32,000 bases of DNA from Pyrodictium occultum. GTDB taxonomy: Archaea > Thermoproteota > Thermoprotei_A > Sulfolobales > Pyrodictiaceae. The DNA lies in NCBI RefSeq assembly GCF_001462395.1, contig NZ_LNTB01000002.1, positions 78,836 to 110,835 of the forward strand, in the 5' to 3' direction. A model generated the notes under the pieces. That model worked only from the letters and a program-made list of their open reading frames with translations. It was not told the DNA's origin and made no database searches. A program made the translations under genes and the position numbers. Positions within the stretch are counted from its first letter, which is position 1, and each line of letters starts with the position of its first letter. Shown here piece after piece: positions 8,420-31,249 of this stretch.

Positions 8420-8420
8420 C

Positions 8421-14321: not shown

Positions 14322-14343
14322 AGGCATAGTAAGGTTTAAGATG

Positions 14344-14376: not shown

Positions 14377-14461
14377 GTGTTGAGCCATGGAATATAAGAA
14401 AATGCTATTAATAGCTGCTACGGCTACAGTTATTGGACTTAAGGAGCTTGATTCTAGGAGT

Positions 14462-15376: not shown

Positions 15377-15401
15377 TTTAAAAATTGAGGTACTTAGGGA
15401 A

Positions 15402-18100: not shown

Positions 18101-18139
18101 TTTGAGGATTGGAACCAGAAGTGGGCGGAGATAGGTGTC

Positions 18140-18826: not shown

Positions 18827-18988
18827 GTACTTAGTTCTTTATCAAAGAATCGTTGTTATATTAGGCTTATCCACAATATAAAATTTAATTTATTCAAGCT
18901 TCACAATTTATTTTATCTACCAGCAAGCTATCAAAACGCTAAAATAGGAGAGTAGAATATTATCTAAGAACGTAAGTTAAAGATTAGT

Positions 18989-19653
18989 TTGGGTGCGAAG
19001 GAATTGAAGACAATAATTGTTCTGGGGATGGGTAGGTCTGGAACCTCGATGGTAGCTGGGATTCTGCACATACTCGGGGTTAACATGGGCGAGAGGCTCC
19101 TCGGGGCCCACTGGTCCAACCCTCTAGGCCACTTCGAGGACCTTGACTTCGTCGAGTTGAACGAGGAGATCCTGAGGGCGGCCGGTGGGAGCTGGGACAA
19201 CCCCCCGGCCCGGGAGGCGATCCTGGCGGTCGCCCCACGCTTCTACGATAGGATAAGGCCGCTCGCGGAGGAGGAGAGGAGGAGGCACGAGGTGTGGGGC
19301 TGGAAGGATCCCAGGACCTCCCTCACCGTGGAGCTGTACCTCCCCCACCTCGAGAACCCCTACTTCATAGTGTGCCACCGCGACTGGGAGGCTATAGCGC
19401 GCTCCCTCAAGAGGAGGGATGGGATGAGCATAGAGAGGGGGTCTGGCTGGCCAGGGTGTGCTATGAGAGGGTTGAGGAGTTCTTCAGGGAGCACCCGGGC
19501 CTCAGAAGACTGGACGTTCGCTACGAGGACTTCATAGCCGGCCCGGAGGCTCACGTCAGGAGGATAGCCTCGTCCATAGGCCTGGAGCCCGGTGAGGAGA
19601 GGATCAGGAGGGCCACTGCCTTCGTGCTCTCCCCGGGGAGAGGGAGAGGCTAG
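18989..19653 (+). pseudogene. Sulfotransferase-family protein, frameshifted at a G5 run (19437..19441)
   Basis: Frame 2 gives IIVLGMGRSGTSM (5-prime-PSB-like P-loop), WGWKDPRTS (3-prime-PB-like) and CHRDWEAIARSLKRRDGMSIERG. Frame 1 continues VWLARVCYERVEEFFREHPGLRRLDVRYEDFIAGPEAHVRRIASSIGL. One extra G in the run joins them. TTG start. Confidence 0.65.
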
Positions 19654-19777
19654 TCAGGAGGATGAGGAGGGAGGAGATGGCCCGAAGGATCGTCAGGGGC
19701 TTGACGAACCCGAGGAAGGCGCTCAGGTACATTATGGGGAGGCTCCTGGGGAGAAGGTAGCCGGCTCACGGCCCCCG

Positions 19778-19783
19778 TTTATA
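19778..19783 (+). promoter_or_regulatory. Candidate TATA box for the rml block
   Basis: tttata in otherwise GC-rich DNA, about 40 nt upstream of TTG 19821. Confidence 0.3.
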
Positions 19784-19820
19784 CCCTGCCCGCCGCCCTG
19801 CCTCCCCCGGGGGCTCAGCG

Positions 19821-20897
19821 TTGGGCGGCGGCGTTAGGGGCCTGGTTCTTGCGGGCGGCGAGGGCACGCGGCTTAGGCCGCTGACCCTCGCCATGCCTAA
19901 GCATTTGGTGCCCCTGCTGGGTAGGGCTATGATTGAGTACCCCATCGGGCACCTGGTGGAGGCTGGGGTTAGGGATGTTGGTGTTGTGGTCGGCTACCTG
20001 GGCCACTTGATCACGGGCTACCTGGGTGATGGGTCTAGGTATGGGGCCAGGTTCACGTACATAAGGCAGGGGGAGAGGCTTGGGATAGCGCACGCTATAC
20101 ACCTGGCCGTCGAGGAGGGCTTCGTGGATGGGCCCTTCGTTGTCTACCTTGGTGACAACATACTCGCCGGGGGGGTACGGGGGTTCCTGGAGAGGTTCCT
20201 GGAGGAGGAGCCGGACGTGCTCATACTCCTCTCCAGGGTCAGGGATCCCGGGAGGTTCGGCGTCGCGGTCGTCAGGGACGGCAGGGTCGTGCGGCTGGTG
20301 GAGAAGCCGAGGGAGCCCCCCTCAAACCTCGCCCTGATAGGGGTCTACTTCTTCAGGGACCCCGACCTGGTGGAGAGGGCCTTCACGGCCCTCAAGCCTT
20401 CGTGGAGGGGTGAGTACGAGGTCACGGACCTGATACAGTGGTTCATAGACAACGGGTACAGGGTCGACTACGACGTAGTAAACGGCTGGTGGAAGGACGT
20501 CGGGACCCCCGAGGGGCTCCTCGAGGCGATATACCTCCTCCTGGACGAGTCCAAGCCCAGGATTGACGGGGAGGTCGCGGGGGAGGTCGTGGGGAGGGTT
20601 ATAGTGGAGGAGGGCGCCGTAGTCGAGGGGAGGGTCTACGGGCCGGCCTACATAGGCCGGGGGGCCCGCATAGGCGGGGAGGCTGCGGTCGAGCACTACG
20701 TGTCCATAGAGAGCGGGTCCAGGGTGCTCTCGGGCTCCATATCGAGGTCGCTCATAATGAGCGACAGCGTCATAGACGTCAAAAGGCTTAGGCTCGTTGA
20801 CAGCGTTGTGGGCCAGGGCTCCATCGTGAGGGCCTCCAGGGAGATACACGGGGAGATCAGGCTGGCGATATCGAATTACAGCCGGGTCGAGATATAG
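19821..20897 (+). CDS. rmlA: Sugar-1-phosphate nucleotidylyltransferase, long archaeal form with C-terminal left-handed beta-helix (glucose-1-phosphate thymidylyltransferase-like)
   Basis: Carries LAGGEGTRLRPLTLAMPKHLVPL (GGxGTRLxPLT) and a C-terminal hexapeptide-repeat-like region (VEEGAVVEGRVYGPAYIGRGARIGGEAAV). It is adjacent to rmlD and rmlC. TTG start. Confidence 0.65.
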   Translation: MGGGVRGLVLAGGEGTRLRPLTLAMPKHLVPLLGRAMIEYPIGHLVEAGVRDVGVVVGYLGHLITGYLGDGSRYGARFTYIRQGERLGIAHAIHLAVEEGFVDGPFVVYLGDNILAGGVRGFLERFLEEEPDVLILLSRVRDPGRFGVAVVRDGRVVRLVEKPREPPSNLALIGVYFFRDPDLVERAFTALKPSWRGEYEVTDLIQWFIDNGYRVDYDVVNGWWKDVGTPEGLLEAIYLLLDESKPRIDGEVAGEVVGRVIVEEGAVVEGRVYGPAYIGRGARIGGEAAVEHYVSIESGSRVLSGSISRSLIMSDSVIDVKRLRLVDSVVGQGSIVRASREIHGEIRLAISNYSRVEI

Positions 20898-20912
20898 CGC
20901 CGATACTGGAGT

Positions 20913-21950
20913 ATGCGCGGTGACGTCGGCTGGAGGGGTGGCTTGGTGAGGGTCCTAATCACGGGTTGCGCGGGCTACATAGGCACAACGCTCACCCCAT
21001 ACCTCCTCAGGAGGGGCTACGAGGTCAGATGCGTCGACAAGCTAATCTTTGGGAGGGATGTCGTAGAGCACGTGCTAGGTGAGAGGGGGTTCGAGCTTGT
21101 AGAGGCCGACGTGAGGAGCGTAGACCCCCAGGTTCTCAGCGGGGTCGACTGCGTGGTGGACATGGCCGCCATACCTAACGACCCCGCGGGGGACCTCAAC
21201 CCCGAGCTCACGCTCTCCATAAACTACAGGGGCAGGGCTAGGATGGCATCCATGGCGAGGGAGAGGGGGGTCCCCTGCTATGTCCTATTCTCCAGCTGCA
21301 GCGTCTACGGGAGGCAGGAGGGGCCCGTCGACGAGGCCGCGGAGCCCAGGCCGCTGACAGTCTACGCCAGGGCCAACCTCCTAGCGGAGAGGGCCGTTCT
21401 CCCCCTCGCCAGCGAAGGGTTCACCCCCGTGGCCCTCAGGCTAGCTACAGTCTACGGGCCATCGAGGAGGATGAGGTTCGACCTCGTAGTCAACGCTATG
21501 ACCCTCTCAGCCTACCGGGAGGGGAGGATATACGTCGAGGGCGACGGGATGCAGGAGAGACCCCTAGTACACGTCCTAGACGTGGCTAGGGCCGTGGAGA
21601 GGGTGCTGGAGGCCGTGGAGAGGGACCCAGACCCCCTCAAGGGCCAGGTAATCAACATCGGCTCGGACGAGCAGAACTACAGGATAATCGAGATAGCTAG
21701 GATAGTGCGCGGGATAGTCGGGGGCGAGATAGTCTTCCGGGGCGAGGTTGACAGGAGGAGTTACAGGGTCAAGTTCGGGAGGGCTAGGAGGCTACTCGGC
21801 TTCCAGCCACTCTACACAGTGGAGGATGGAGTCAAGCAGGTATACCACGAGCTCCTCACGGGGAAGCTGAAGCCCGAGCCCCGCTGGATAACGGTTCAGT
21901 GGTATAGGGAGCTACTCTCCAGGAACCCGGAGGTGCTGCTAAAGTGGTAG
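20913..21950 (+). CDS. Extended SDR NAD-dependent epimerase/dehydratase with a non-canonical catalytic motif (YxxxN)
   Basis: Carries VLITGCAGYIGTTL, FSSCSVYG and TVYARANLLAE. The likely true start is TTG 20943 or GTG 20946 (MRVLITG). It occupies the slot where rmlB would be expected but lacks the TDEVYG / YSASK motifs. Confidence 0.65.
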   Translation: MRGDVGWRGGLVRVLITGCAGYIGTTLTPYLLRRGYEVRCVDKLIFGRDVVEHVLGERGFELVEADVRSVDPQVLSGVDCVVDMAAIPNDPAGDLNPELTLSINYRGRARMASMARERGVPCYVLFSSCSVYGRQEGPVDEAAEPRPLTVYARANLLAERAVLPLASEGFTPVALRLATVYGPSRRMRFDLVVNAMTLSAYREGRIYVEGDGMQERPLVHVLDVARAVERVLEAVERDPDPLKGQVINIGSDEQNYRIIEIARIVRGIVGGEIVFRGEVDRRSYRVKFGRARRLLGFQPLYTVEDGVKQVYHELLTGKLKPEPRWITVQWYRELLSRNPEVLLKW

Positions 21951-22837
21951 CCCTGGTCACGGGGGTCAGCTCCTCCCCGGGCTACAAGGCCGCCCTCTCC
22001 CTCGCCCGCAGGGGGGTCGAGGTGGTCGGAGTCTATAACCAGCATCCCGTCAGAGTTAAGGGTGTGGAGACCATTAGGAGGGACCTCACCCGGGACGCCC
22101 GCGGGCTCGTGAGGGAGTACAAGCCCGACGCCGTGGTGCACACCGCCGCTATGGGAAACGTCGACCTCTGCGAGGAGGATAGAAGCGCCTGCTACAGGGT
22201 GAACGTTGAGGCGACTAGGGAGCTCCTCAGGGAGGCCTACAGGCTCGGAGCCAGGATAGTCTACCTCTCGACGGACTACGTCTTCGACGGGGCGAGGGGG
22301 CTCTACAGGGAGGAAGACACGCCCTCCCCCGTCAACTTCTACGGGCTCACCAAGCTCCTAGGAGAGGAGGCGGCGCTAGCCCTCGGGGGCGTAGTGGCCA
22401 GGACCTCAGCGGTCTACGGCGTGGGCCCGGGGAGGCCCAACTTCGGCAAGGTTGTGGTCGAGAAGCTCATGCGAGGAGAGCGGGTGAGAGCCTTCACAGA
22501 CCAGTGGCTCTCCCCCACGCTCAACACCCTCCTAGGCGAGGCCCTCGCAATGCTGGCGGTCGAAGCCGACTACGAGGGGATACTACACGTGGCCGGCCCC
22601 CGGATGAGCAGGTACGACTTCGCCGTCGCAGTAGCCAGAGCCTTCGGCCTAGACGAGGGGCTCATAGAGCCCGCCTCGATGGATAGCGTGGACTTCAAGG
22701 CTCCAAGGCCCAGGGATAGCAGCCTTGACTCCTCCAAGGCCTCAAGAATGCTGGGGCTAAGGCTCAACGACCTAGGCCACGCGCTCAGCCTATTCAAGAG
22801 AGAGCTTCGCGGCGAGACGGGCCAGCCCCCAACTTAA
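21944..22837 (+). CDS. rmlD: dTDP-4-dehydrorhamnose reductase
   Basis: Carries KPDAVVHTAAMGNVDLCEED, YLSTDYVFDG and FYGLTKLLGEEA (YxxxK). The GTG start overlaps the upstream stop. Confidence 0.7.
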   Translation: MVALVTGVSSSPGYKAALSLARRGVEVVGVYNQHPVRVKGVETIRRDLTRDARGLVREYKPDAVVHTAAMGNVDLCEEDRSACYRVNVEATRELLREAYRLGARIVYLSTDYVFDGARGLYREEDTPSPVNFYGLTKLLGEEAALALGGVVARTSAVYGVGPGRPNFGKVVVEKLMRGERVRAFTDQWLSPTLNTLLGEALAMLAVEADYEGILHVAGPRMSRYDFAVAVARAFGLDEGLIEPASMDSVDFKAPRPRDSSLDSSKASRMLGLRLNDLGHALSLFKRELRGETGQPPT

Positions 22838-22864
22838 ATCCTCCGGGAACCCCGAGCCGTTCTG

Positions 22865-23446
22865 GTGGTGTATGCCTTGCCGTTCAAGTCCTTCAAGCGG
22901 CTCGGGATCCCCGACGTGGTACTGGTCGAGCCCGTGGTCTTCCCCGATGAGAGGGGCTTCTTCGCGGAGCTCTACAAGAGGACCCCATTCCTCTCCGAGG
23001 GGATCCCCTACGACTTCGTCCAGGTGAACCTGAGCAAGTCGAGGAGGGGCGTCGTCAGGGGGCTGCACTACCAGCTCAGGCCGATGGAGCAGGGTAAGCT
23101 GGTCACGGTCCTCCGGGGCAGGATCCTGGACGTTGCAGTGGATATCAGGAGGGGGAGCCCGTGGTATGGGAGGTACGTGGCTGTCGAGCTGGCCGCCAAC
23201 GAGCCCAGGCTGCTCTGGGTGCCCCCAGGCTTCGCCCACGGGTTCCAGGCGCTCGAGGACGACACCCTGGTACTATACCTGGTGACCAAGGAGTACAGCC
23301 CCGAGCACGAGCGCTGCATCAAGTGGGACGATCCGGACATAGGCGTGGACTGGCCCATAAAGGAGGGCGTCCTGCTCAGCGAGAAGGACCAGAGGTGCCC
23401 GCCGCTGCGCGGGGCGGAGACGAACTTCGAGTACCCCGGGGGCTAG
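22865..23446 (+). CDS. rmlC: dTDP-4-dehydrorhamnose 3,5-epimerase
   Basis: Carries FPDERGFFAELY, RGLHYQ, KLVTVLRGRILDVAVDIRRGSPWYG, VPPGFAHGF and KEYSPEHERCIKWDDPDIGVDWP. Confidence 0.85.
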   Translation: MVYALPFKSFKRLGIPDVVLVEPVVFPDERGFFAELYKRTPFLSEGIPYDFVQVNLSKSRRGVVRGLHYQLRPMEQGKLVTVLRGRILDVAVDIRRGSPWYGRYVAVELAANEPRLLWVPPGFAHGFQALEDDTLVLYLVTKEYSPEHERCIKWDDPDIGVDWPIKEGVLLSEKDQRCPPLRGAETNFEYPGG

Positions 23447-23577
23447 TGCCCCCGGACAGCGGTCTTGCCGCGGCTGTTGCTGCCGGCGTTGCTGTGCGGC
23501 TTCCCTTGCTGCTACCGCTGCTGCCCTGCGGGGGCTGTCCGGCGGGGGTGGTGGCGTTCTCGTGGCCCCGGGGCGTC

Positions 23578-23597
23578 TTTAATGATATTTAATTAAT
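23578..23597 (+). promoter_or_regulatory. AT-rich promoter candidate for the RHH-sat-NPP operon
   Basis: tttaatgatatttaattaat is a 20-nt A/T block in very GC-rich DNA. It contains TTAATG twice and the palindrome TTAATTAA, and lies about 35-55 nt upstream of TTG 23633. Confidence 0.4.
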
Positions 23598-23632
23598 GCC
23601 TCGTCCTCCCCGGGGCTGCGGGGTTTGGGGTC

Positions 23633-23878
23633 TTGGCCTCCGGCGGCTCTGGCGGCAGGAGGGGGAGGTACACTACTGTCTCTATACCGGTCTCCCTCTA
23701 CGAGCGGATCCAGAGGCTTATCGAGGGGACGGGGTTCACCAGTGTGTCCCAGTTTGTGACGTATGTGCTGCGGGAGGTTGTGGCGGAGATGGAGGAGGAG
23801 AGGCTGAGGAGCGGGGAGGTTGGTGAGGAGGAGAAGAAGGCTATTCTCGAGAGGCTTCGGAGGCTTGGCTACCTGTAG
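23633..23878 (+). CDS. Small ribbon-helix-helix (CopG-like) protein with an acidic linker and a conserved C-terminal LGYL tail
   Basis: RYTTVSIPVSLYERIQRLIEGTGFTSVSQFVTYVLREVV shows a beta-strand/helix/helix pattern. Then EMEEERLRSGEVGEEEKKAILERLRRLGYL. TTG is the only in-frame start. Paralog of 26464..26672. Confidence 0.6.
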   Translation: MASGGSGGRRGRYTTVSIPVSLYERIQRLIEGTGFTSVSQFVTYVLREVVAEMEEERLRSGEVGEEEKKAILERLRRLGYL

Positions 23879-23886
23879 CCCTCCTA

Positions 23887-25065
23887 TTGGCGGGGTGGTG
23901 TGGTGTGGTCTCGCGTCCTCATGGGGGTAGGCTTGTGGACAGGGTTGCCCGGGGTGGGTCGAGGGAGAGGCTGCTGCGGGAGGCTCTGGAGATGCCCAGG
24001 CTGGAGGTTGGCGGGGGCTTGGCTGCGGATGCCGCTAATATCGCGCATGGGGTTTATAGCCCGTTGGATGGCTTCATGGTGCAGGAGGATTACCTCTCGG
24101 TGCTGCATGATATGAGGCTTAGCAGTGATGTGCCGTGGACTATCCCGATTGTGCTTGATGCTTCTCCGGGCGAGCTGGCGGGGGTTAGGGAGGGTGATGA
24201 GGTTGCCCTCTTCTACCGTGGTGAGCCGCTGGCGGTGCTCCGGGTTGAGGAGATCTATGGCTGGGACCGGAGGGAGCATGCCCTCAACGTGTTTAAGACC
24301 ACTGACCCGGGGCACCCGGGCGTTGCCAGGCTTATGAGGAGGAAGGAGCTGTTCGTGGGCGGGCCTATCCTCCTCCTCCGGGACCCGCCGGAGCCTTTTG
24401 AGAGGGTGAGGCTCTGGCCCCGGGAGACGCGTGTGCTCTTCGAGGCCAAGGGCTGGAGGACTATAGCGGCTTTCCAGACGCGCAACGTGCCCCATCTAGG
24501 CCACGAGCATGTGCAGAAGGCCGCGCTCACCTTCGCCGACGGGCTGTTTGTGAGCCCTCTGGTGGGCTGGAAGAAGCCCGGCGACTACAGGGACGAGGTG
24601 ATAGTTGAGGCCTACAGGGTGTTGCTGGAGAACTACTTCCCCAGGGAGAGTGTTGTATTCAGCGTGCTCAGGATGGAGATGAGGTACGCGGGGCCGCGGG
24701 AGGCGGTGCACCACGCGATAGTGAGGAAGAACTTCGGCGCAACCCACTTCATAGTGGGGAGGGACCACGCGGGGGTCGGGAGCTACTACGGCCCCTACGA
24801 GGCATGGGAGCTGTTCAGGGAGTTCCCGGACCTAGGGATAACCCCCCTCTTCGTCAGGGAGGCGTTCTACTGCAGAAAGTGCGGCCAGGTGGTCAACGAG
24901 AAGATATGCCCCCACGGCGAGGAGTACAGGGTGAGGATCAGCGGCACCAGGCTGCGGGAGATGCTCCGGAGGGGCGAGAGGCCGCCGGAGTACATGATGA
25001 GGCCGGAGGTGGCGGAGGTGGTCCTAAGGCACCCGGACCCCTTCGTGCCCGGGGACGAGAGGTGA
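23887..25065 (+). CDS. sat: Sulfate adenylyltransferase (ATP sulfurylase)
   Basis: Carries RPHGGRLVDR, FQTRNVPHLGHEHV, VGRDHAGVG and a C-terminal Cys/His cluster CRKCGQVVNEKICPHG. The start is TTG 23887 or GTG 23905. Confidence 0.9.
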   Translation: MAGWCGVVSRPHGGRLVDRVARGGSRERLLREALEMPRLEVGGGLAADAANIAHGVYSPLDGFMVQEDYLSVLHDMRLSSDVPWTIPIVLDASPGELAGVREGDEVALFYRGEPLAVLRVEEIYGWDRREHALNVFKTTDPGHPGVARLMRRKELFVGGPILLLRDPPEPFERVRLWPRETRVLFEAKGWRTIAAFQTRNVPHLGHEHVQKAALTFADGLFVSPLVGWKKPGDYRDEVIVEAYRVLLENYFPRESVVFSVLRMEMRYAGPREAVHHAIVRKNFGATHFIVGRDHAGVGSYYGPYEAWELFREFPDLGITPLFVREAFYCRKCGQVVNEKICPHGEEYRVRISGTRLREMLRRGERPPEYMMRPEVAEVVLRHPDPFVPGDER

Positions 25066-26441
25066 GGGATGCGGGAGGGGTGCCGCGCCGCCTATTCCTC
25101 CTGGGGCTCGACTCGATGCCCCCGAGGGTCCTCTACGAGGGGATGGACGGGGGCGGGTTCAGCTACCTCCGCCAGCTGCTGGGGGATGCGAGGCGCTACC
25201 GGCTGAGGAGCTGCCACCCGCCGATAACGGTGCCGGCCTGGATGGCCATGTTCACGGGGAGGACGCCGGGCGAGCTGGGGGTCTACGGGTTCAGGCACCG
25301 GAGGCCGGGCGAGTACGGCTACTACATAGTCGACGGCACGAGGATACGACACCCGGCCCTATGGGACCTGGCGGGCCGCAGGGGGCTCCGGGCGGGCGTG
25401 TACGGCGTGCCCCCCACCTACCCGCCCCGCCCGGTCCACGGGTTCCTGGTCACCGACTTCACCACCCCGGGGCCGGAGAAGCCCTACACCTTCCCGCCCT
25501 GGCTCCGCCGCGAGCTGGAGCAGGCCGCCGGGGGGCCTCCAGTGTTCGACATAGTGTACCGGAGCGGCGAGAAGGACAGGGTGGCCAGGGACCTCTACGC
25601 GATGCTGGAGAGCCACCAGCGGCAGGTGGAGTACCTGGCGCTGAGGAAGCGCTGGGACCTATTCATATATGTGGAGATAGCCGTCGACAGGGCGCACCAC
25701 GCCTTCTGGAGGTACTTCGACCCCGAGCACCCCCGGCACGAGGAGCACCCGGTGTACAGCAGGGTGATCCCCGAGCTCTACAGGAGGATAGACAGGTGGT
25801 TCGAGAGGCTCCACCGGAGGCTCCCGCGGGACACGGTGGTGGTTGTGGCGAGCGACCACGGCATCAAGGCTATGAGGGGCGCGTTCGCGGTCAACCAGTG
25901 GCTGGCCGAGCAGGGCTACCTCCGGCTGCGCGCCAGCCCCGGGGAGCTGAAGCCCGGCACGGAGCTCTCCGAGGACCTGGTGGACTGGGAGCACACGGTC
26001 GCCTGGGCCTGGGGAGGCTACTACAGCCGCGTGTTCATCAACCTACGGGGCAGGGAGAAGAGGGGCGCGGTGGAGCCCAAGTACTACGAGGAGACGGTCG
26101 AGCAGCTCCGGAGGGACCTCGAGAGGATAAGGGGGCCGGGCGGCGAGCACTGGAGGAACACTGCCCTGCGCCCCGAGGAGGTCTACCCGGAGGTCAACGG
26201 GGACCCGCCGGACCTCATGCTCTACCTGGACGACCTCAACTGGAGGCCGGCGGGCACCCTGGGCTGGCCCAGCCCCTACCTGGAGGAGAACGACCGCGGC
26301 CCCGACGACGCCGTCCACGACTGGATCGGGGTGTTCGCTGTCTACGACCCCGAGGGCACTGTGAGCCCCGGCGAGGCGGGGGTGATTGATATACACGGGG
26401 TGCGCGGCCTGCTGGAAGAGATAATATTCTCCAGGCGGTGA
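25062..26441 (+). CDS. Alkaline-phosphatase-superfamily enzyme, type I phosphodiesterase/nucleotide pyrophosphatase (NPP)-like
   Basis: Carries LLGLDSMPP (metal Asp), HPPITVPAWMAMFTGRTPGELGVYG (Thr nucleophile motif), VVVASDHG and a late His motif. GTG 25062 overlaps the sat TGA (GTGA); GTG 25080 is the alternative start. The ORF-track start at 24804 is a spurious extension into sat. Confidence 0.7.
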   Translation: MRDAGGVPRRLFLLGLDSMPPRVLYEGMDGGGFSYLRQLLGDARRYRLRSCHPPITVPAWMAMFTGRTPGELGVYGFRHRRPGEYGYYIVDGTRIRHPALWDLAGRRGLRAGVYGVPPTYPPRPVHGFLVTDFTTPGPEKPYTFPPWLRRELEQAAGGPPVFDIVYRSGEKDRVARDLYAMLESHQRQVEYLALRKRWDLFIYVEIAVDRAHHAFWRYFDPEHPRHEEHPVYSRVIPELYRRIDRWFERLHRRLPRDTVVVVASDHGIKAMRGAFAVNQWLAEQGYLRLRASPGELKPGTELSEDLVDWEHTVAWAWGGYYSRVFINLRGREKRGAVEPKYYEETVEQLRRDLERIRGPGGEHWRNTALRPEEVYPEVNGDPPDLMLYLDDLNWRPAGTLGWPSPYLEENDRGPDDAVHDWIGVFAVYDPEGTVSPGEAGVIDIHGVRGLLEEIIFSRR

Positions 26442-26463
26442 GGCCCCCGGAGGGGTGGAGAGC

Positions 26464-26672
26464 ATGGGGGACAAGGTCTCCATAGAGATAAGCAGGGAGC
26501 TGTACGAGAAGGCCCGGAGGTTCATAGAGGAGCAGGGGGCTTCAGCAGCGTGGAGGAGCTGGTGGAGTTCCTGCTCCGCGAGGCCCTCGAGACCGGCGGG
26601 GAGGAGGAGGGGATGAGCAGGGAGGACGAGGAGCGGGTCAGGGAGAGGCTCCGCTCCCTGGGCTACCTCTAG
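26464..26672 (+). pseudogene. Second RHH (CopG-like) paralog, frameshifted at a G5 run (26535..26539); not in the ORF track
   Basis: ATG 26464 gives MGDKVSIEISRELYEKARRFIEEQG, then an out-of-frame stop at 26614..26616. One extra G gives ...EEQGGFSSVEELVEFLLREALETGGEEEGMSREDEERVRERLRSLGYL* ending at TAG 26670..26672, colinear with the 23633 paralog. GGAGGGGTGGAG lies upstream of the ATG. Confidence 0.55.
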
Positions 26673-27291
26673 CCCCCTCTCCCAGGGCCTCCAGTATCCT
26701 CGCGGCCAGCCTCTCCGCGTTCTCCTCCACAGTATTCCTCACCGTGTCGAGCACCAGGTCGGGGTTCTCGGGGGGCTCGTAGGGGTCGCTCACGCCGGTG
26801 AAGTGGCTTATCTCCCCGCGGAGGGCGCGGCGGTAGAGCCCCTTAGGGTCCCTCCTGATGCACTCCTCGAGGGGAGCGTGGACGTAGACCTCGAGGAAGG
26901 GGGCCTCCTCCTCGACTATCCTGCGGACCTCCCTCCTCACGTCGCGGTAGGGGGAGACGAAGCTGCAGACCACTATCACCCCATTCCGGGCCAGGAGCCG
27001 GGCTATCCAGGCGACGCGGAGGAGGTGGCGCCGCCTCTCCTCCCGCGTGTAGCCCGCGTCCGGGTTGATGGTCTTCCTCACCCAGTCCCCGTCCAGGACC
27101 TCGACACGGTAGCCCAGGGAGCGTAGCCTCTTAGCGGTAGCCAGGGCTATCGTGGTCTTGCCGCTCGCGGGGAGCCCGGTGAGCCACGCGACAACCCCGC
27201 GCTCCAGGCAGCGCATCCCCAGCCACCCTCCCAGCCCCGCGGGCCCCACGAGCTGGATAAGCCTCGCGCCCACAGCAAGGAGCCAGGCCAC
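26638..27291 (-). CDS. cysC: Adenylylsulfate (APS) kinase
   Basis: Carries VVAWLTGLPASGKTTIA (P-loop), LDGDWVRKTI and CSFVSPY. The likely true start is the internal ATG at 27216 (MRCLERGVVAWLTG). Confidence 0.9.
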   Translation of the reverse strand: MAWLLAVGARLIQLVGPAGLGGWLGMRCLERGVVAWLTGLPASGKTTIALATAKRLRSLGYRVEVLDGDWVRKTINPDAGYTREERRRHLLRVAWIARLLARNGVIVVCSFVSPYRDVRREVRRIVEEEAPFLEVYVHAPLEECIRRDPKGLYRRALRGEISHFTGVSDPYEPPENPDLVLDTVRNTVEENAERLAARILEALGEGARGSPGSGASP

Positions 27292-27447
27292 AATAAGCCG
27301 GAGAGGTGATGGGGGGCAGCAGGGAGAGCTGGCATCCAGCCTCCGGCTCCGCCCCTCGGCGCAGGCCTTGGCGCCGCTCGCCCACCGGGCGCTCGGGTGG
27401 GGGCTTCTCCGCTCTTGCTGGCCGAGATGGGCTCCAAGCCATTATAG

Positions 27448-28464
27448 ATGGCGTGGGTGATGTATAGCCCTGCATCCCCGGGGGGCTGTGGGTGTGGCCT
27501 GGGCTTGGCCGTGCTAGTCACGGGCGGCGCTGGGTTCGTCGGGAGGCATGTAGTGGGGCTGCTGCTCGAGAGGGGCTACGAGGCTGTTGTGGTGGACAAC
27601 CTCTACTCCCCGGGCTCGGCTGGGGCCGCCATGCGCCTCCGCTGGCTGGGTGCGCGGGTTGTCTGGGGTGACGTCTCCCGCTGGGAGACCCTGCTCCACG
27701 CCGTGGGGGAGGCTGGGCTGGGGCGGGGCGACGTCGAGGCCGTGGTCCACCTGGCCGCGGTGGTGGGCGTCGAGGAGGCATGGGGGAGGCCGCGGCTGGC
27801 GCTGGAGGTGAACGTAGAGGGTACGCTGAACGTGCTGGAGCTGGCCCGGCTCCTCGACGCGGAGAGGATTGTCTACGCCAGCAGCGCGGCGGTCTACGGG
27901 GAGCCCAGGTACCTCCCCATCGACGAGAACCATCCCCTGGAGCCGGTCAGCCTCTACGGCTGGTCGAAGCTCGCCGGGGAGACCCTGCTCTGGCAGTACC
28001 AGCGGGCCTACGGGCTCAGGCCGGCCGCGCTCCGCCTGTTCAACGTCTACGGGCCCGGGATGAGGCCGGGCCCCTACGCGGGCGTGGTGTACAGGTTCAT
28101 AGAGGCGCTTCTCCGCGGGGAGCCGCCGGTGGTCTACGGCGACGGCGAGCAGACCCGGGACCTCGTCTACGTGGGGGACGTGGCTGAGGCCATGCTCCGG
28201 GCGGTAGAGGCGGGCTACACGGGCCCAGCCAACATAGGCACCGGGAGGGAGACCAGCATAAACCAGCTCTACAGGATGCTCTGCAGCCTCCTGGGCGGGG
28301 GCTGCCCGGAGCCGCTCCACAAGCCCCCGAGGCCGGGGGATGTTAGGAGGAGCGTAGCCTCAATCAGGCTGGCGGAGGAGAAGCTCGGCTGGAAGCCCAG
28401 GACAGGCCTGGAGCAAGGCCTAAGGGAGACGATCAAGTACTATAGGGGGCGCGTAGAGCCGTAG
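27448..28464 (+). CDS. NAD-dependent nucleotide-sugar epimerase/dehydratase (extended SDR, GalE-like)
   Basis: Carries VLVTGGAGFVGRHVV, ASSAAVYGEP and LYGWSKLAGE (YxxxK). The likely start is TTG 27505 or GTG 27511, just before the Rossmann motif. Confidence 0.8.
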   Translation: MAWVMYSPASPGGCGCGLGLAVLVTGGAGFVGRHVVGLLLERGYEAVVVDNLYSPGSAGAAMRLRWLGARVVWGDVSRWETLLHAVGEAGLGRGDVEAVVHLAAVVGVEEAWGRPRLALEVNVEGTLNVLELARLLDAERIVYASSAAVYGEPRYLPIDENHPLEPVSLYGWSKLAGETLLWQYQRAYGLRPAALRLFNVYGPGMRPGPYAGVVYRFIEALLRGEPPVVYGDGEQTRDLVYVGDVAEAMLRAVEAGYTGPANIGTGRETSINQLYRMLCSLLGGGCPEPLHKPPRPGDVRRSVASIRLAEEKLGWKPRTGLEQGLRETIKYYRGRVEP

Positions 28465-28609
28465 ACAGGGCAGACGCCGGGTCGAACGAGAGTAGCCCAG
28501 CGCCGCCGGCCACCTCGAAGGACACGTGAACGTGGAGCACCCTGGCCGCCACGGTGCCTGCACCCCTGCCCGCGGGGGCCAGCCCTCACGGCTCCCCGCA
28601 GGGCCCCTC

Positions 28610-30098
28610 CTATGGCTTCAGGAGCTGTAGCCTCCGTAGCCTCCTGAATAGGCTTGTGTAGTTGGCCTTTCCGGCCGCGTTGAGCCCTGTGGCGAAGGCG
28701 TCTGCCAGAGGCCTGCCATCCGTGTCGTGGGGTAGTGGGAGCCCGAGGTACGCTAGTATGGTGGGTGTGATGTCGTAGATGGAGGCTCTCCTCTCCTCGC
28801 CGGCGGGCGGGGCGGATACCTCATCCCCCGCCAGGGCTACTAGCGCGTGCTGCTCGTGGACGCCCATATACCCCTTGTGGAGCGGCTCTGCATGTATGTT
28901 CGCGTCGAAGAACACGTCGGGCCCCGGTATGAGGAGTAGGCTGGGCGCCCTCTCCACGTAGGGCCCCCAGAAGACCTCGTCCCGCGAGGCTATGCCCCGT
29001 ATCTGGCTGATGCCCTGCAGTGCCTGGCGCACGGCGCCGCAGTAGCCCCTCCTCACGTACACCCCCAGGTTGCCCGTCTCGAGCATGAAGGCCCTGCTTG
29101 TGGAGTAGTTCACCTCCACCTGTAGAGGGATCAGTGGCCTTATCCTCTTCAGGAGGCTTCTCGGTATAAGCCTCCTCGCCAGCCGGAGGAGGGGGCGTAT
29201 TCTGGAGCCCCGGGCGCTGCTGGGGGAGCTGCCGCTGCCCGGCTCCGTGGCGCTGTGCTCTGCCCCCCCGGGCCACGTGGTACCGGTAGTCTATCAGGCC
29301 CCTGTCTGCGAGGATGCTGTTTACACCCACGAGCACGCGTGCGACGCGGAAGCCGTGATCGCTCGCGAGTATAAGCAGGCTGCACTCGCCGCTAGCTTTA
29401 CGGACAAACCTGTCTATCATCGATGCGATCCTGTAGACTCTATGCATTTGCCTGCCCTCGACTATGTCCGGGATCCTGTGCATGAGCCAGTCGAGCTCGC
29501 TGAACACTATGACGAAGAGGCTGTAGTCCTCCTTCTCGAGCAGGTCATAGTAGATGTTTAGCCTCTTCTCGAGAAACTCCTCAACCATCTTCACATAGGA
29601 GTCTGTGTCGGCGGCCCTGCTCCACTGGTGGGGAGGCTCGACCAGGTACTCGGAGTACCTGGCCTCATAGCCTCTAGGGTGGATGAACTGCCGGGGGGAG
29701 GACCAGTCGCTGACGAGTACAAGGTTCCGGGCCGCGAGGAGCTGGGATACGGGGTAGGTTAGGGGCACGTTTATGACGACGCTCCTAAGCCCCTTCATGG
29801 CGGCTATCTCGAACACGCGCGGGTACATGACGTCGCGGGACGATGCCACGCGGATACTGAAGCCCTCTTCGCCCTGCTCGACCACGTAGAAGCCGAATAT
29901 GCCGTGCTTCCCGGGGTTCACCCCGGTGAATATGCTCGTCCAGGCGGGGGGCGTGTAGGGAGGGATCGAGGGAGCGGGGGAGGCGAAGCCCTTGCCGGCT
30001 ATGCTGGATAGCGCGTTGAGCGGGATACTCTCCAGCATGGTCTTAAGGTTGCCTGGCCCGACGCCGTCGAGGCCTATTAGGCATACACGTTTAGCCAA
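28610..30098 (-). pseudogene. Second NPP-like alkaline-phosphatase-superfamily paralog, frameshifted at a G7 run on the coding strand (C7 at 29263..29269)
   Basis: The N-part (TTG 30098) has LIGLDGVGP, IPPYTPPAWTSIFTGVNPGKHGIFG and LLILASDHG up to ...IDYRYHVARGG. The C-part frame is open from just upstream of the run: AEHSATEPGSGSSPSSARGSRIRPLLRLARRLIPRSLLKRIRPLIPLQVEVNYSTSRAFMLE...GVHEQHA...DITPTILAYLGLPLPHDTDGRPL. Removing one G joins them. Past the run, the ORF-track 425-aa product is Arg/Gly/Pro-rich junk. Confidence 0.65.
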
Positions 30099-30250: not shown

Positions 30251-31249
30251 ATGAAGCGGCTGGTGTTCGTCGCCTGGGCGCGGCTTAGCCGGAGGACGCG
30301 CGACCTCGCCCGGGCCCTTGGGGCCGGGCTGCTGTTCCTCCGGGATAGGCCCCCCTACATCCGCGCCTGGAGGGAGACCGCCAGGGCGCTGGAGGAGGCC
30401 AGGCCGGACGCCGTGGTCGTGCAGCTGCCGCAGGGGCCGCTGCTCCTCCGCGTGGCCACGCTGGCCGGGCGCCTCGGCTTCCGGGTCGTGGCCGACGTGC
30501 ACACCGGGTTCCTCGTCTACAGCTCGCCGGCGGGGCTCCTGCTCAACCGGCCCTTCCGCGGGCTCCTCCGCCGCGCCGACCTGGTGCTGGCCCACAACGA
30601 GCCCGAGGCGAGGCTGCTGGGGAGGGCCGGGCTGCCGGGGGAGAGGGTGCTGGTGGTCTACGACCCCCTGCCCCGGCCCCCGGCTAGGCTGGAGAGGCCA
30701 GCCCTAGACCTCGGCGACGGGGGGTACATCCTCGTCCCGGCCTCCTGGGCGCCCGACGAGCCCCTGGAGCTCGTGGCCAGGGGCTTCCTCGCATCAGGGG
30801 CCCCCGGGGGCTACAGGCTCGTGGTGACCGGGGATCCGGGGAGGAGGCCGGGGCTCCACCGGAGGCTGAGGAGGCTGGCCCGGGAGAGCCGGGGCTCCAT
30901 AGTGCTCACCGGCTTCCTCCCCGAGCCCCAGTACGCCTGGCTCCTCAGCCACGCCGCCGCCGTGGTGGCGGCTACGACGAGGGAGTACACGATGCTCTCG
31001 GCGGCCTGGGAGGCGGTGGCCTACCGGAAGCCCCTCCTAGCATCCGCGACGGGGACGCTGAGGGAGGTGCTGGGGCCGGGCTACCCCTGCCTCTTCCCCC
31101 CGACCGTGGAGGGGGTGGCGGAGGCCATCGACAGGTGCCTCTCCGGGGGCCCCGGGGTCGCGGAGGCAGTCGAGGAGACCCTGGAGAGGCTGAGAAGGAT
31201 GTCGACGGGGAGCCTGGAGAGGCTGGCCAGGATCCTCGAGAGGCTCTAG
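30251..31249 (+). CDS. Divergent GT-B-fold glycosyltransferase (GT4-like)
   Basis: 332 aa. Shows a two-Rossmann-like layout: ADLVLAHNEPEARLL, YILVPASWAPDEP, LVVTGDPG, VLTGFLPEPQYAWLL and EYTMLSAAWEAVAYRKPLLAS. Weak motif support. Confidence 0.5.
   Translation: MKRLVFVAWARLSRRTRDLARALGAGLLFLRDRPPYIRAWRETARALEEARPDAVVVQLPQGPLLLRVATLAGRLGFRVVADVHTGFLVYSSPAGLLLNRPFRGLLRRADLVLAHNEPEARLLGRAGLPGERVLVVYDPLPRPPARLERPALDLGDGGYILVPASWAPDEPLELVARGFLASGAPGGYRLVVTGDPGRRPGLHRRLRRLARESRGSIVLTGFLPEPQYAWLLSHAAAVVAATTREYTMLSAAWEAVAYRKPLLASATGTLREVLGPGYPCLFPPTVEGVAEAIDRCLSGGPGVAEAVEETLERLRRMSTGSLERLARILERL

What the first reader, a model, noticed from the sequence alone, without database searches (positions are those of the whole stretch)
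18989..30098. PAPS-generating and PAPS-using genes embedded in an archaeal glycosylation locus: candidate glycan sulfation system
sat (QTRNVPHLGHEH and GRDHAG motifs) and cysC (GLPASGKTT, LDGDWVR, SFVSPY) together make PAPS. No APS/PAPS reductase or sulfite reductase is present in the window. Instead a sulfotransferase-family gene (GMGRSGTS and WKDPRTS motifs), rml genes, SDR epimerases, more than ten glycosyltransferases and a flippase surround them. That context argues the activated sulfate is a sulfuryl donor for a surface glycan rather than for sulfur assimilation. Sulfated archaeal glycans are known chemically: halobacterial S-layer glycans, and sulfoquinovose in the Sulfolobus N-glycan made by a different, sulfite-dependent route. 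To my knowledge a PAPS-dependent glycan sulfotransferase pathway has not been genetically defined in archaea. The module also carries two uncharacterised NPP-like enzymes and two RHH proteins that could be new pathway components.
Basis: partly seen in the sequence, partly recalled or inferred. Interest (0 to 1): 0.78.

Follow-up and report, generated by a model that had tools for sequence, protein, structure and literature searches.

The report
Archaeal PAPS module in glycan locus
This stretch of Pyrodictium occultum DNA carries an already described archaeal gene set for making activated sulfate (PAPS); it sits inside a surface-sugar locus, which supports a sulfation role, but the ordinary sulfotransferase gene beside it is broken.

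Summary
They are sat, cysC, a Sulfotransfer_3 gene, rmlA/C/D, SDR enzymes, two NPP-like genes, two RHH genes, about ten glycosyltransferases and a flippase. No cysH or sir lies in the window or in 9 kb beyond it in a sister strain.

The core (RHH, sat, NPP-like, RHH, cysC) is not new. It is the Pyrodictium occultum copy of the archaeal "copG-sat-pApase-NPP-cysC" cluster described in 2021 (PMC8268124). In 32 well-flanked loci holding the NPP-like gene, sat was nearby in 27 and cysC in 24. A canonical sulfotransferase was nearby in only 2 of 83 loci.

The window's sulfotransferase has two frameshifts. A sister strain carries a different frameshift in the same gene, and amino-acid-changing substitutions are in excess there. 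sat, NPP1 and cysC are intact in every assembly. So the PAPS maker is kept, while the proposed PAPS user looks decayed or switchable.

Sulfation, probably of a surface glycan, is the best reading but is unproven. Archaeal glycan sulfotransferases were defined genetically in 2025 (Agl30 and Agl31). Both belong to the alkaline-phosphatase superfamily, which makes the conserved NPP-like enzyme the most interesting unknown here.

The parts
18989..19760 (+). Canonical sulfotransferase gene (Sulfotransfer_3 family, about 257 aa once repaired). In this assembly it is broken by two single-base frame changes, near 19436-19440 (G run) and 19628-19631 (C run).
   Evidence: Pfam PF13469 on both pieces. 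The repaired protein aligns end to end with 250-aa homologues and keeps all 49 invariant residues. The sister strain L091 lacks both lesions but has its own at window position 19101. Substitutions are 6 nonsynonymous to 3 synonymous.
19821..20897 (+). rmlA, long form (glucose-1-phosphate thymidylyltransferase).
   Evidence: TIGR01208, 422 bits against a cut-off of 320; PF00483.
20913..21950 (+). SDR-type NDP-sugar epimerase or dehydratase.
   Evidence: PF01370, E 3e-40. This stretch has diverged from the sister strain.
21944..22837 (+). rmlD (dTDP-4-dehydrorhamnose reductase).
   Evidence: PF04321, E 2e-56.
22865..23446 (+). rmlC (dTDP-4-dehydrorhamnose 3,5-epimerase).
   Evidence: PF00908, E 5e-68.
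23633..23878 (+). RHH1: copG-like ribbon-helix-helix protein, the first gene of the PAPS module.
   Evidence: PF01402, 22.9 bits against a cut-off of 20.5. Found next to sat in 23 of 32 well-flanked loci. Called a putative copG regulator in PMC8268124.
23905..25065 (+). sat (ATP sulfurylase): sulfate + ATP gives APS + PPi.
   Evidence: PF14306 plus PF01747, E 3e-93. NF003166, 525 bits. Intact in all assemblies.
25080..26441 (+). NPP1: a cytosolic 453-aa enzyme of the alkaline-phosphatase superfamily (PF01663). It is a core member of the PAPS module; its activity is unknown.
   Evidence: PF01663, E 4e-44. Homologues are 55-81% identical across Thermoproteota. Linked to sat in 27 of 32 loci and to cysC in 24 of 32. 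AF2 model pLDDT 89; best structural matches are ENPP1/3 and Xac NPP. Metal ligands and the Thr nucleophile are invariant. No predicted TM segment.
26464..26672 (+). RHH2: a second small RHH-like protein, paralogous to RHH1. It is frameshifted in this assembly at the G run at 26535.
   Evidence: Reciprocal phmmer hits with RHH1. Intact as 68 aa in L001, where the run is G6 rather than G5.
26638..27216 (-). cysC (APS kinase): APS + ATP gives PAPS + ADP.
   Evidence: PF01583, E 2e-57. TIGR00455, 205 bits against a cut-off of 139.
27505..28464 (+). SDR-type NDP-sugar epimerase or 4,6-dehydratase (possible rmlB or galE).
   Evidence: PF01370, E 3e-59. The GalE and dTDP-glucose dehydratase models both score below their cut-offs.
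28610..30098 (-). NPP2: a second PF01663 paralogue, 22% identical to NPP1. It is frameshifted at the C7 run at 29263.
   Evidence: PF01663. Removing one C gives a 495-aa ORF matching the intact P. delaneyi NPP2 over its full length, in segments of 47-54% identity. It is broken at other sites in L001, L002 and L003.
30251..31249 (+). GT4-family glycosyltransferase.
   Evidence: PF13439 and PF13692. Identical protein in three Logan assemblies.
31246..32000 (-). GT4-family glycosyltransferase; it runs off the end of the window.
   Evidence: PF13692 and PF00534. It is 404 aa in L001.
2411..3910 (-).
   Evidence: Hydropathy analysis. 42% identical (E 4e-107) to the Polysacc_synt flippase that lies next to the PAPS module and a sulfotransferase in the Pyrodictium MAG L019.
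5700..19020 (.). Low-GC island (36-43% GC against 63-72% in the flanks) carrying glycosyltransferases, methyltransferases, an SDR enzyme and a 12-TM protein. Its right border lies inside the 5' end of the sulfotransferase gene.
   Evidence: Composition. Pfam. Homology with the sister strain begins at 19019, and that strain carries a different island. No tRNA gene and no flanking repeats.

Best explanation
The region is the Pyrodictium occultum copy of a conserved, co-inherited archaeal PAPS module: RHH regulator, ATP sulfurylase, NPP-like alkaline-phosphatase-superfamily enzyme, second RHH, APS kinase. Here it sits inside a hypervariable, recombining surface-glycan locus. That locus holds rmlA/C/D, SDR enzymes, about ten glycosyltransferases, methyltransferases, a Wzx-like flippase and a 13-kb low-GC island.

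Shown by family assignment: sat makes APS and cysC makes PAPS.

Inferred: the PAPS is a sulfuryl donor, not an intermediate of sulfur assimilation. In Pyrodictiaceae the acceptor is most likely a lipid-linked or surface glycan.

The canonical Sulfotransfer_3 gene next to the module is of a polysaccharide-cluster type. It is disrupted by different indels in the two strains available and evolves under relaxed constraint. So it is either a recent pseudogene or an on/off gene, and it cannot be the reason the PAPS core is conserved.

The conserved NPP-like enzyme handles a small phospho- or sulfo-nucleotide-type substrate of the pathway. It either pulls or tunes PAPS synthesis by hydrolysing PPi, APS or PAPS, or it is itself the PAPS-consuming enzyme. 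Which of these is true is not settled.

PAP recycling (DHH pApase) and anion transport (TauE) belong to the module in relatives but are not in this window.
For: - Family assignments above curated cut-offs for sat, cysC, rmlA, rmlC and rmlD.
- Module conservation: of 32 NPP1 loci with at least 4 kb on both sides, sat is nearby in 27, cysC in 24, DHH in 14, RHH1 in 23, RHH2 in 20 and TauE in 8.
- NPP1 identity tracks that of sat (r = 0.92) and cysC (r = 0.85) over 36 loci.
- The same five-gene cluster is published for Thermococcales, Ferroglobus, Aciduliprofundum, Aeropyrum and Ignicoccus, with the DHH protein shown to be a pApase (PMC8268124).
- No reductase lies in the window, in 9 kb downstream, or by motif in 83 loci.
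- The host makes sulfide from sulfur.
- Glycan link within Pyrodictiaceae: GT4 genes lie next to the module in P. delaneyi and Hyperthermus. In L019 and L021 a Sulfotransfer_3 gene and a flippase lie next to it. An orthologous flippase is in the window. NPP1 is translationally coupled to an AglH/WecA-type transferase in L037 and L039.
- The nearest intact relative of the window's sulfotransferase lies in a polysaccharide cluster with a glucuronyl C5-epimerase.
- Sulfotransferase decay: independent frameshifts in the two strains; the seven frameshifting indels cluster in ST, NPP2 and RHH2 (P about 0.006-0.03); 6 nonsynonymous to 3 synonymous changes in ST against 1 to 8 in sat, NPP1, RHH1 and the 5' part of rmlA.
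Against: - No chemical evidence for sulfate on any Pyrodictium glycan turned up in the literature search.
- Outside Pyrodictiaceae the module's neighbours are heterogeneous. Only 4 GT4 and 3 SDR proteins were found among 140 neighbouring ORFs, so the glycan context may be incidental.
- The only canonical sulfotransferase in the window is broken, as are NPP2 and RHH2.
- The window lacks the pApase and the transporter.
- cysH is reported by KEGG annotation in another Pyrodictiaceae genome (PMC13140500). I could not search the rest of the P. occultum genome.
- Some frameshifts may be assembly errors. The published assembly reports 3,360 CDS in 1.6 Mb.
Confidence: 0.55

Rival explanations
1. NPP1 is the missing sulfotransferase. 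It would be a non-canonical alkaline-phosphatase-superfamily enzyme that takes the sulfuryl group from PAPS (or APS) and puts it on a conserved acceptor such as a lipid-linked glycan, as Agl30 and Agl31 do in Halobacterium. The canonical sulfotransferase would then be an accessory.
For: - NPP1 is the only uncharacterised enzyme in a module that otherwise has every step of a PAPS cycle: sat, cysC and the pApase.
- Canonical sulfotransferases are near the module in only 2 of 83 loci.
- P. yayanosii is reported to have the module, including a working pApase, but no recognisable sulfotransferase or reductase.
- The only genetically proven archaeal glycan sulfotransferases belong to the alkaline-phosphatase superfamily.
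- In NPP1 the Asn typical of NPP enzymes is replaced by an invariant F-R-H-R, which fits an extra anionic group.
- NPP1 is translationally coupled to an AglH-like transferase in two loci.
- NPP1 stays intact while ST and NPP2 decay.
Against: - NPP1 has an NPP-type Thr nucleophile and a two-metal site, not the sulfatase-type site. Agl30 and Agl31 are sulfatase-like, a different family of the superfamily.
- From general knowledge, Thr/Ser alkaline-phosphatase and NPP enzymes are very poor at sulfuryl transfer.
- Its 45-80% identity across distant lineages fits a small common substrate better than a variable glycan.
- No biochemical data exist.
Confidence: 0.18
2. NPP1 is a helper hydrolase. It removes PPi, or trims APS, PAPS or PAP, so that the unfavourable ATP sulfurylase reaction runs forward. 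The module only supplies PAPS, and variable sulfotransferases encoded elsewhere use it.
For: - Jin et al. proposed PPi hydrolysis for the orthologue PYCH_17550.
- The fold and the full set of metal ligands are those of nucleotide pyrophosphatases.
- The high, sat-like conservation suggests a universal small substrate.
- Different sulfotransferase types lie near the module in different genomes: the window type, and the 345-aa type in L019.
- From general knowledge, fusions of PAPS synthase with pyrophosphatase exist in some eukaryotes.
Against: - From general knowledge, cells already have a housekeeping pyrophosphatase.
- NPP1 also occurs without sat in 5 of 32 well-flanked loci.
- Most genomes show no sulfotransferase near the module, and P. 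yayanosii is reported to have none at all.
Confidence: 0.3
3. The module serves sulfur assimilation. PAPS would be reduced by a cysH-type or atypical reductase encoded elsewhere, and the position in a glycan locus would be incidental.
For: - The cluster is labelled 'assimilatory sulfate reduction' in PMC8268124.
- KEGG annotation finds sat, cysC and cysH in a Pyrodictiaceae MAG.
- An atypical archaeal PAPS pathway with a DHH pApase exists in Methanothermococcus thermolithotrophicus (PMC10322725).
Against: - No reductase was found in the window, in the 9 kb beyond it, or by motif in 83 loci.
- No PAPS_reduct or sulfite-reductase family appeared among the top families of 140 neighbouring ORFs.
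- P. occultum produces sulfide as its main metabolic product.
- Jin et al. could not find the reductive enzymes in P. yayanosii.
Confidence: 0.12
4. The system is a decaying remnant in this species. ST, NPP2, RHH2, a GT4 gene and a GT2-methyltransferase gene are pseudogenes, and no sulfated product is made in the sequenced culture strains.
For: - Multiple lesions: two in ST, and one each in RHH2, NPP2 and the GT2-MT gene, plus an in-frame stop in a GT4 gene.
- Different lesions hit the same genes in other strains.
- Amino-acid-changing substitutions are in excess in ST.
Against: - sat, NPP1, cysC, RHH1 and the rml genes are intact in all assemblies, with mostly synonymous changes.
- ST keeps every invariant residue.
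- All the indels lie at G/C runs, which are also prone to assembly error or to reversible slippage.
Confidence: 0.15

Closest known systems
Archaeal copG-sat-pApase(DHH)-NPP-cysC cluster (Pyrococcus yayanosii PYCH_17520-17560; Jin et al. 2021, PMC8268124)
   Same: The gene families match and the order is largely the same: an RHH/copG gene ahead of sat, then a PF01663 NPP-like gene, then APS kinase. No reductase is present and the use of the PAPS is unknown. In some archaea a sulfotransferase or a TauE gene lies next to the cluster.
   Different: The window lacks the DHH pApase and TauE. It has a second RHH gene. It is embedded in a glycan locus with rml genes, glycosyltransferases, a flippase, a second NPP paralogue and a (broken) Sulfotransfer_3 gene.
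Halobacterium salinarum N-glycan sulfotransferases Agl30 and Agl31 (Zaretsky et al. 2025, PMC11980604)
   Same: Both are archaeal and lie in a glycosylation gene cluster that carries several alkaline-phosphatase-superfamily proteins. They sulfate sugars of a lipid-linked glycan.
   Different: Agl30 and Agl31 are sulfatase-like, whereas NPP1 and NPP2 are PF01663 NPP-like enzymes with a Thr nucleophile. That paper never mentions PAPS, a sulfurylase or an APS kinase. Nothing shows that NPP1 or NPP2 transfer sulfate.
Bacterial PAPS-plus-sulfotransferase glycan systems (rhizobial NodPQ/NodH, Xanthomonas RaxPQ/RaxST, mycobacterial CysDNC/Stf0); recalled from general knowledge, not tested here
   Same: The logic is the same: dedicated sulfate-activation genes placed beside a canonical PAPS-dependent sulfotransferase that decorates a surface or secreted glycoconjugate.
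   Different: Here sat is the homo-oligomeric type, not CysDN. The module carries NPP-like and RHH genes. The sulfotransferase is disrupted. The host is an archaeon.
Assimilatory sulfate reduction in Methanothermococcus thermolithotrophicus (Jespersen et al. 2023, PMC10322725)
   Same: ATP sulfurylase, APS kinase and, in relatives of the window, a DHH-type PAP phosphatase.
   Different: That pathway has a PAPS reductase and an F420-dependent sulfite reductase. Neither is present here, and it has no NPP-like enzyme. I know it only from its title and abstract and from general knowledge.

Membership tests
Archaeal copG-sat-pApase-NPP-cysC PAPS cluster (PMC8268124) | ATP sulfurylase and APS kinase genes together | tested here: met
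   PF01747 E 3e-93 and PF01583 E 2e-57; both NCBIfam models above their cut-offs.
Archaeal copG-sat-pApase-NPP-cysC PAPS cluster (PMC8268124) | A type I phosphodiesterase/NPP (PF01663) gene directly after sat | tested here: met
   NPP1 starts 14 nt after sat. It is 45-80% identical to the NPP1 genes of 36 loci that also hold sat and cysC.
Archaeal copG-sat-pApase-NPP-cysC PAPS cluster (PMC8268124) | A copG/RHH gene upstream of sat | tested here: met
   RHH_1, 22.9 bits against a cut-off of 20.5, at 23633-23878.
Archaeal copG-sat-pApase-NPP-cysC PAPS cluster (PMC8268124) | A DHH-family pApase gene inside the cluster | tested here: not met
   No DHH homologue anywhere in the window. It is present in 14 of 32 well-flanked loci, for example L019. 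It is also absent from the clusters of P. delaneyi, Hyperthermus and Pyrolobus.
Canonical PAPS-dependent sulfotransferase (Pfam Sulfotransfer_3/Sulfotransfer_1 fold) | Profile match, a 5'-phosphosulfate-binding loop and 3'-phosphate-binding residues | tested here: met
   PF13469 on both pieces: 22.3 bits (below the cut-off of 27) and 28.1 bits (above it). Full-length homologues carry PF13469 and PF00685. G13-M-x-R16-S17-G18-T19, R131 and S139 are invariant in the alignment.
Canonical PAPS-dependent sulfotransferase (Pfam Sulfotransfer_3/Sulfotransfer_1 fold) | An uninterrupted reading frame | tested here: not met
   Two frame changes in the window and a different one in the sister strain L091.
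Assimilatory sulfate reduction operon (sat-cysC-cysH-sir) | A PAPS/APS reductase and a sulfite reductase adjacent to the activation genes | tested here: not met
   None among the Pfam-annotated genes of the window or of the 9 kb downstream. No SGGKDS or ECGLH motif in the window or in 83 loci, apart from one TtcA-like protein.
Assimilatory sulfate reduction operon (sat-cysC-cysH-sir) | Reductases elsewhere in the genome | not testable with these tools
KEGG annotation reports cysH in another Pyrodictiaceae MAG.
Alkaline-phosphatase-superfamily archaeal glycan sulfotransferases (Agl30/Agl31) | An alkaline-phosphatase-like core domain | tested here: met
   PF01663 for NPP1 and NPP2. The NPP1 model matches NPP structures. 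That PF01663 and the sulfatase family share one superfamily is general knowledge.
[not shown]
   The best Foldseek matches are ENPP1/3, Xac NPP and PhnA, not sulfatases. The nucleophile is Thr50 in a PPITVPAW motif. A PF00884 gene exists only in the sister strain's island.
Alkaline-phosphatase-superfamily archaeal glycan sulfotransferases (Agl30/Agl31) | Demonstrated sulfation of a glycan | not testable with these tools
   This needs genetics or biochemistry.
Nucleotide pyrophosphatase/phosphodiesterase (NPP) family | Two-metal site with a Thr nucleophile (Asp, Thr, Asp/His, Asp-His, His) | tested here: met
   D11, T50, D203, H207, D259, H260 and H413 are invariant in 20 sequences. The mapping onto Xac NPP residues is inferred.
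Nucleotide pyrophosphatase/phosphodiesterase (NPP) family | The HG-x-x-N motif, whose Asn contacts the transferred phosphoryl group | tested here: not met
   In the alignment to PhnA, the motif HGICGN corresponds to LGIYGF followed by an invariant R-H-R.
dTDP-L-rhamnose pathway | rmlA, rmlB, rmlC and rmlD all present | tested here: inconclusive
   rmlA, rmlC and rmlD are clear. No SDR enzyme reaches the dTDP-glucose 4,6-dehydratase cut-off; the best is 149 bits against 365.

The most novel reading that the evidence does not exclude
The conserved NPP-like protein (NPP1 family, COG3379-type) would be a new class of sulfuryl-transfer enzyme. It would be an alkaline-phosphatase-superfamily, Thr-nucleophile, PAPS- or APS-dependent sulfotransferase. 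That would make it the long-missing PAPS consumer of the archaeal sat-cysC-pApase clusters, acting on a conserved acceptor such as a dolichol-linked glycan. The canonical sulfotransferase and NPP2, both carrying G/C-run indels, would be strain-variable or phase-variable accessory decorators.
Probability: 0.15. Interest if true: 0.8.

Novelty: new member of a known kind. Interest (0 to 1): 0.42.

Why it matters
Many hyperthermophilic archaea that live in sulfide carry genes to make PAPS but have no known way to use it. The authors who described the cluster called its significance unclear.

The Pyrodictium locus, and its relatives with a flippase and a sulfotransferase beside the module, point to surface-glycan sulfation as a testable use. 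The analysis also singles out one conserved, uncharacterised enzyme, NPP1, as the key unknown.

If NPP1 proved to be the PAPS consumer, it would add a second non-canonical sulfotransferase type to the alkaline-phosphatase superfamily, after the Halobacterium enzymes Agl30 and Agl31. As it stands, the finding is a reasonable annotation-level hypothesis about a known module, weakened by the broken sulfotransferase.

Tried and rejected
- Looking up window proteins (the GT4 at 15402-16607, P0001, rmlA) in the contig index found nothing. I reached the sister strain's upstream region only through an rmlA homologue.
- HMMs of both sulfotransferase types, searched against all ORFs of 83 NPP1 loci, hit only L019 and L021. 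I therefore dropped the idea that a canonical sulfotransferase is part of the conserved module.
- The CysH motif scan was negative.
- A Pfam census of 140 neighbouring ORFs gave no consistent partner beyond the module genes. I therefore dropped 'always embedded in glycosylation loci'.
- The neighbours of NPP1 loci that lack sat are heterogeneous, apart from the AglH-like coupling in two loci.
- The NPP1 profile searched against PDB sequences gave only a marginal PhnA hit.
- I first took all the frameshifts for assembly errors, because they sit at homopolymers and the paper reports 3,360 CDS in 1.6 Mb. I then weakened that view: the indels cluster in ST and NPP2, and ST shows an excess of nonsynonymous changes.
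- No tRNA gene or direct repeats mark the island.
- Two P-loop proteins (14735-15376, and the 243-aa protein in L091) did not match the sulfotransferase HMMs.

Full report
**Source and observation.** The window comes from Pyrodictium occultum. The N-terminal sulfotransferase fragment is 99% identical to CF15_08305.
- sat: PUA_2 plus ATP-sulfurylase, E 3e-93; NF003166, 525 bits against a cut-off of 387.
- cysC: APS_kinase, E 2e-57.
- A Sulfotransfer_3 gene split into overlapping ORFs.
- rmlA (long form), rmlD and rmlC.
- Three SDR sugar-nucleotide enzymes.
- Two PF01663 'Phosphodiest' genes.
- Two small RHH-type genes.
- About nine or ten glycosyltransferases, plus methyltransferases.
- An 11-TM Wzx-like flippase at 2411-3910 on the minus strand.

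Positions 5.7-19.0 kb form a 36-43% GC island inside DNA of 63-72% GC.

**The core is a known module.** NPP1 (25080-26441) starts 14 nt after sat. It belongs to a tightly conserved family of about 450 aa, 55-81% identical across Pyrodictiaceae, other Desulfurococcales, Acidilobaceae, Thermofilaceae, Methanomethylicia, Korarchaeia and others.

I fetched 80 loci from reference genomes, plus the loci of P. delaneyi, Hyperthermus and Pyrolobus. Among the 32 with at least 4 kb on both sides of NPP1, the counts within 7 kb were:

| Gene | Loci (of 32) |
|---|---|
| sat | 27 |
| cysC | 24 |
| RHH1 | 23 |
| RHH2 | 20 |
| DHH phosphoesterase | 14 |
| TauE permease | 8 |

NPP1's identity to the window copy tracks that of sat (r = 0.92) and cysC (r = 0.85) over 36 loci, so the genes travel together.

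This is the five-gene cluster that Jin et al. (2021) described in Pyrococcus yayanosii, Thermococcus onnurineus, Ferroglobus, Aciduliprofundum, Aeropyrum and Ignicoccus: copG, sat, DHH pApase, NPP, APS kinase. They showed that the DHH protein is a PAP phosphatase and guessed that the NPP removes PPi. They noted that TauE, and sometimes a sulfotransferase, lies next to the cluster. They stated that no sulfotransferase or reductase is recognisable in P. yayanosii and that the cluster's significance is unclear. So the 'two NPP-like and two RHH proteins' are not new components. The window's copy lacks the pApase and TauE.

**Sulfation or assimilation.**
- No cysH or sir is in the window, or in the 9 kb downstream in a 99.5%-identical sister contig.
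- A scan for the PP-loop and ECGLH motifs across 83 loci found only one TtcA-like protein.
- A Pfam census of 140 neighbouring ORFs showed no reductase family among its 25 commonest families.
- P. occultum lives by reducing sulfur to sulfide.

These points favour a sulfuryl-donor role. However, KEGG annotation finds cysH in another Pyrodictiaceae MAG, and I could not search the rest of this genome. Assimilation is therefore unlikely but not excluded.

**Link to glycans.** Within Pyrodictiaceae the link recurs.
- GT4 genes flank the module in P. delaneyi and Hyperthermus.
- In two Pyrodictium-type MAGs (L019 and L021) the order is cysC, TauE, RHH, sat, DHH, NPP1, RHH, then a 345-aa Sulfotransfer_3 protein, then a Polysacc_synt flippase. 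The window's flippase is 42% identical to that one.
- In two Acidilobaceae/Caldisphaera loci, NPP1 overlaps the start of an AglH/WecA-type transferase gene.
- The nearest intact relative of the window's sulfotransferase (55% identical) lies in a bacterial polysaccharide cluster with glycosyltransferases and a glucuronyl C5-epimerase.

Outside this family the neighbours are heterogeneous: 165 Pfam families among 140 ORFs, with GT4 in four and SDR in three. Canonical sulfotransferases occur near the module in only 2 of 83 loci. The glycan context is real but lineage-specific.

**The sulfotransferase is damaged.**
- The window copy needs two frame corrections. With them it aligns end to end with 250-aa homologues and keeps all 49 invariant residues.
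- An independent Logan assembly of a sister strain (L091, 95.8% identical here) has the gene at the same place. It lacks both window lesions but carries a different frameshift at window position 19101, plus a 6-nt in-frame insertion.
- NPP2 behaves the same way. It is broken at the C7 run at 29263 in the window. In three Logan assemblies it is broken by a 2-nt deletion at 29698-9. L001 also carries a further 1-nt deletion.
- RHH2 is frameshifted only in the window.
- In total, seven frameshifting differences fall in ST (3), NPP2 (3) and RHH2 (1). None falls in 7.7 kb of rmlA, rmlC, RHH1, sat, NPP1, cysC, SDR and GT4 sequence.
- In a simulation weighted by gene length or by G/C-run count, the chance of hitting three or fewer of the twelve genes is about 0.025-0.03. 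The chance of two genes taking at least three events each is about 0.006.
- Substitutions between the strains are 6 nonsynonymous to 3 synonymous in ST. In sat, NPP1, RHH1 and the 5' part of rmlA together they are 1 to 8.

Assembly error cannot be excluded for single sites. All the indels are at G/C runs, and the genome paper lists an implausible 3,360 CDS for 1.6 Mb. Even so, the pattern points to relaxed constraint, or to switching, on ST and NPP2, with purifying selection on the PAPS core. So the canonical sulfotransferase cannot be what keeps the core conserved.

**NPP1.**
- The AlphaFold model is confident (pLDDT 89.4, pTM 0.90). Its best matches are ENPP1/3, Xanthomonas NPP and phosphonoacetate hydrolase, at TM about 0.55 and 14-16% identity.
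- By sequence, only PhnA is marginally detectable in the PDB (E 1e-3). NCBIfam has no model for the family.
- The residues expected for the two-metal site and the Thr nucleophile (D11, T50, D203, H207, D259, H260, H413) are invariant.
- The HG-x-x-N motif of NPP and PhnA is replaced by LGxYGF followed by an invariant R-H-R. That suggests an extra anionic group on the substrate.
- The protein has no predicted TM segment.

Two readings stand. The first is a helper hydrolase acting on PPi, APS or PAPS, as Jin et al. guessed. The second is that NPP1 is the PAPS-consuming enzyme itself.

The second reading gains weight from two points. Agl30 and Agl31 of Halobacterium salinarum, the only genetically proven archaeal glycan sulfotransferases, are alkaline-phosphatase-superfamily proteins. 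And the module otherwise holds a complete PAPS cycle with no consumer.

It loses weight from two others. Agl30 and Agl31 are sulfatase-like rather than NPP-like. And NPP1 is conserved nearly as well as sat.

**A hypervariable locus.**
- Homology between the window and the sister strain starts at 19019, about 10 codons into the sulfotransferase gene.
- Upstream, the sister strain carries a different low-GC island, with a PF00884 sulfatase-family gene, a Methyltransf_21 gene, a polysaccharide deacetylase and glycosyltransferases.
- The stretch from the 3' end of rmlA through rmlD (about 20686-22878) has also diverged between the strains.
- No tRNA gene or flanking repeat marks the island. Exchange by homologous recombination in conserved flanks is therefore the likely mechanism. 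This is an inference.

**Verdict.** The module is a member of a published cluster. Archaeal glycan sulfotransferases are no longer genetically undefined, although a PAPS-dependent canonical one still is (PMC11625862). Glycan sulfation is a sensible but unproven use of the PAPS. The proposed sulfotransferase is disrupted in both strains. The most interesting open point is what the conserved NPP-like enzyme does.

**What led nowhere.**
- Three contig look-ups with window proteins failed.
- Two fold libraries were unavailable.
- A genome-wide search for cysH and sir in P. occultum could not be run.

Noticed in passing
window 5700-19020; L091 1-8000: A 13-kb island of 36-43% GC, full of glycosyltransferases and methyltransferases, sits in a genome of about 65% GC. 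A sister strain has a different low-GC island at the same place, and the right-hand junction falls about 10 codons inside the sulfotransferase gene. It resembles an O-antigen-style replaceable glycan cassette in a hyperthermophilic archaeon.
   Followed up: partly
L091 1-1029 (sister strain, DRR667394_1): The sister strain's island carries a PF00884 sulfatase-family gene, cut by the end of the locus. This is the protein type that acts as N-glycan sulfotransferase (Agl31) in Halobacterium. It lies about 8 kb upstream of the sulfotransferase and the PAPS module.
   Followed up: partly
window 19101, 19432-19440, 19628-19631, 26535, 28871, 29263, 29698-29699: All seven frameshifting differences between assemblies sit at or next to G/C runs, and only in ST, NPP2 and RHH2. 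They could be slippage-based on/off switching of glycan-decorating genes, pseudogenisation in culture, or assembly error. Reads were not available to decide.
   Followed up: partly
window 10163-11287 and 16608-18100: A GT4 gene is interrupted by an in-frame stop after codon 197 (RVIL*VARISPEKN). A GT2 domain continues in another frame into a CmcI/rhamnosyl-O-methyltransferase-like ORF, which looks like a frameshifted GT2-methyltransferase fusion.
   Followed up: partly
L037 532-2933 and L039 384-2812: In an Acidilobaceae MAG and a Caldisphaera MAG, the NPP1 orthologue has no sat nearby. Instead it abuts a Glycos_transf_4 (AglH/WecA-type) gene (1-nt overlap in L037, about 50-nt gap in L039); this family catalyses the first step of lipid-linked glycan assembly.
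   Followed up: partly
window 23633-23878 and 26464-26672: The two RHH proteins are paralogues. Both end in a conserved basic tail, ...RL(R/K)xLGY(L/I), after an acidic linker. This tail is kept across distant archaea, and its role (ligand sensing or partner binding) is unknown.
   Followed up: no
window 14735-15376; L091 1118-1849: Each of the two different islands carries a 210-245-aa protein with an N-terminal Walker A P-loop; the window's copy also has predicted hydrophobic segments. The two proteins are not detectably similar to each other or to the sulfotransferase HMMs.
   Followed up: partly
window 20686-22878 against L001/L091: Identity to the sister strain drops from more than 99% to about 92% within the 3' end of rmlA, and to undetectable across the SDR gene and rmlD. 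It returns to 99.5% from rmlC onward. This is a recombination tract inside the rhamnose genes.
   Followed up: no
window 8421-10178 and 13371-14321: A 585-aa protein with 12 predicted TM segments (possibly a Wzy-like polymerase or an oligosaccharyltransferase-like protein) and a 316-aa soluble protein have no Pfam match at all.
   Followed up: no
whole assembly (literature, PMC4767911): The genome announcement reports 3,360 protein-coding genes for a 1.6-Mb genome, about twice the usual density. This suggests widespread gene fragmentation in the deposited assembly.
   Followed up: no
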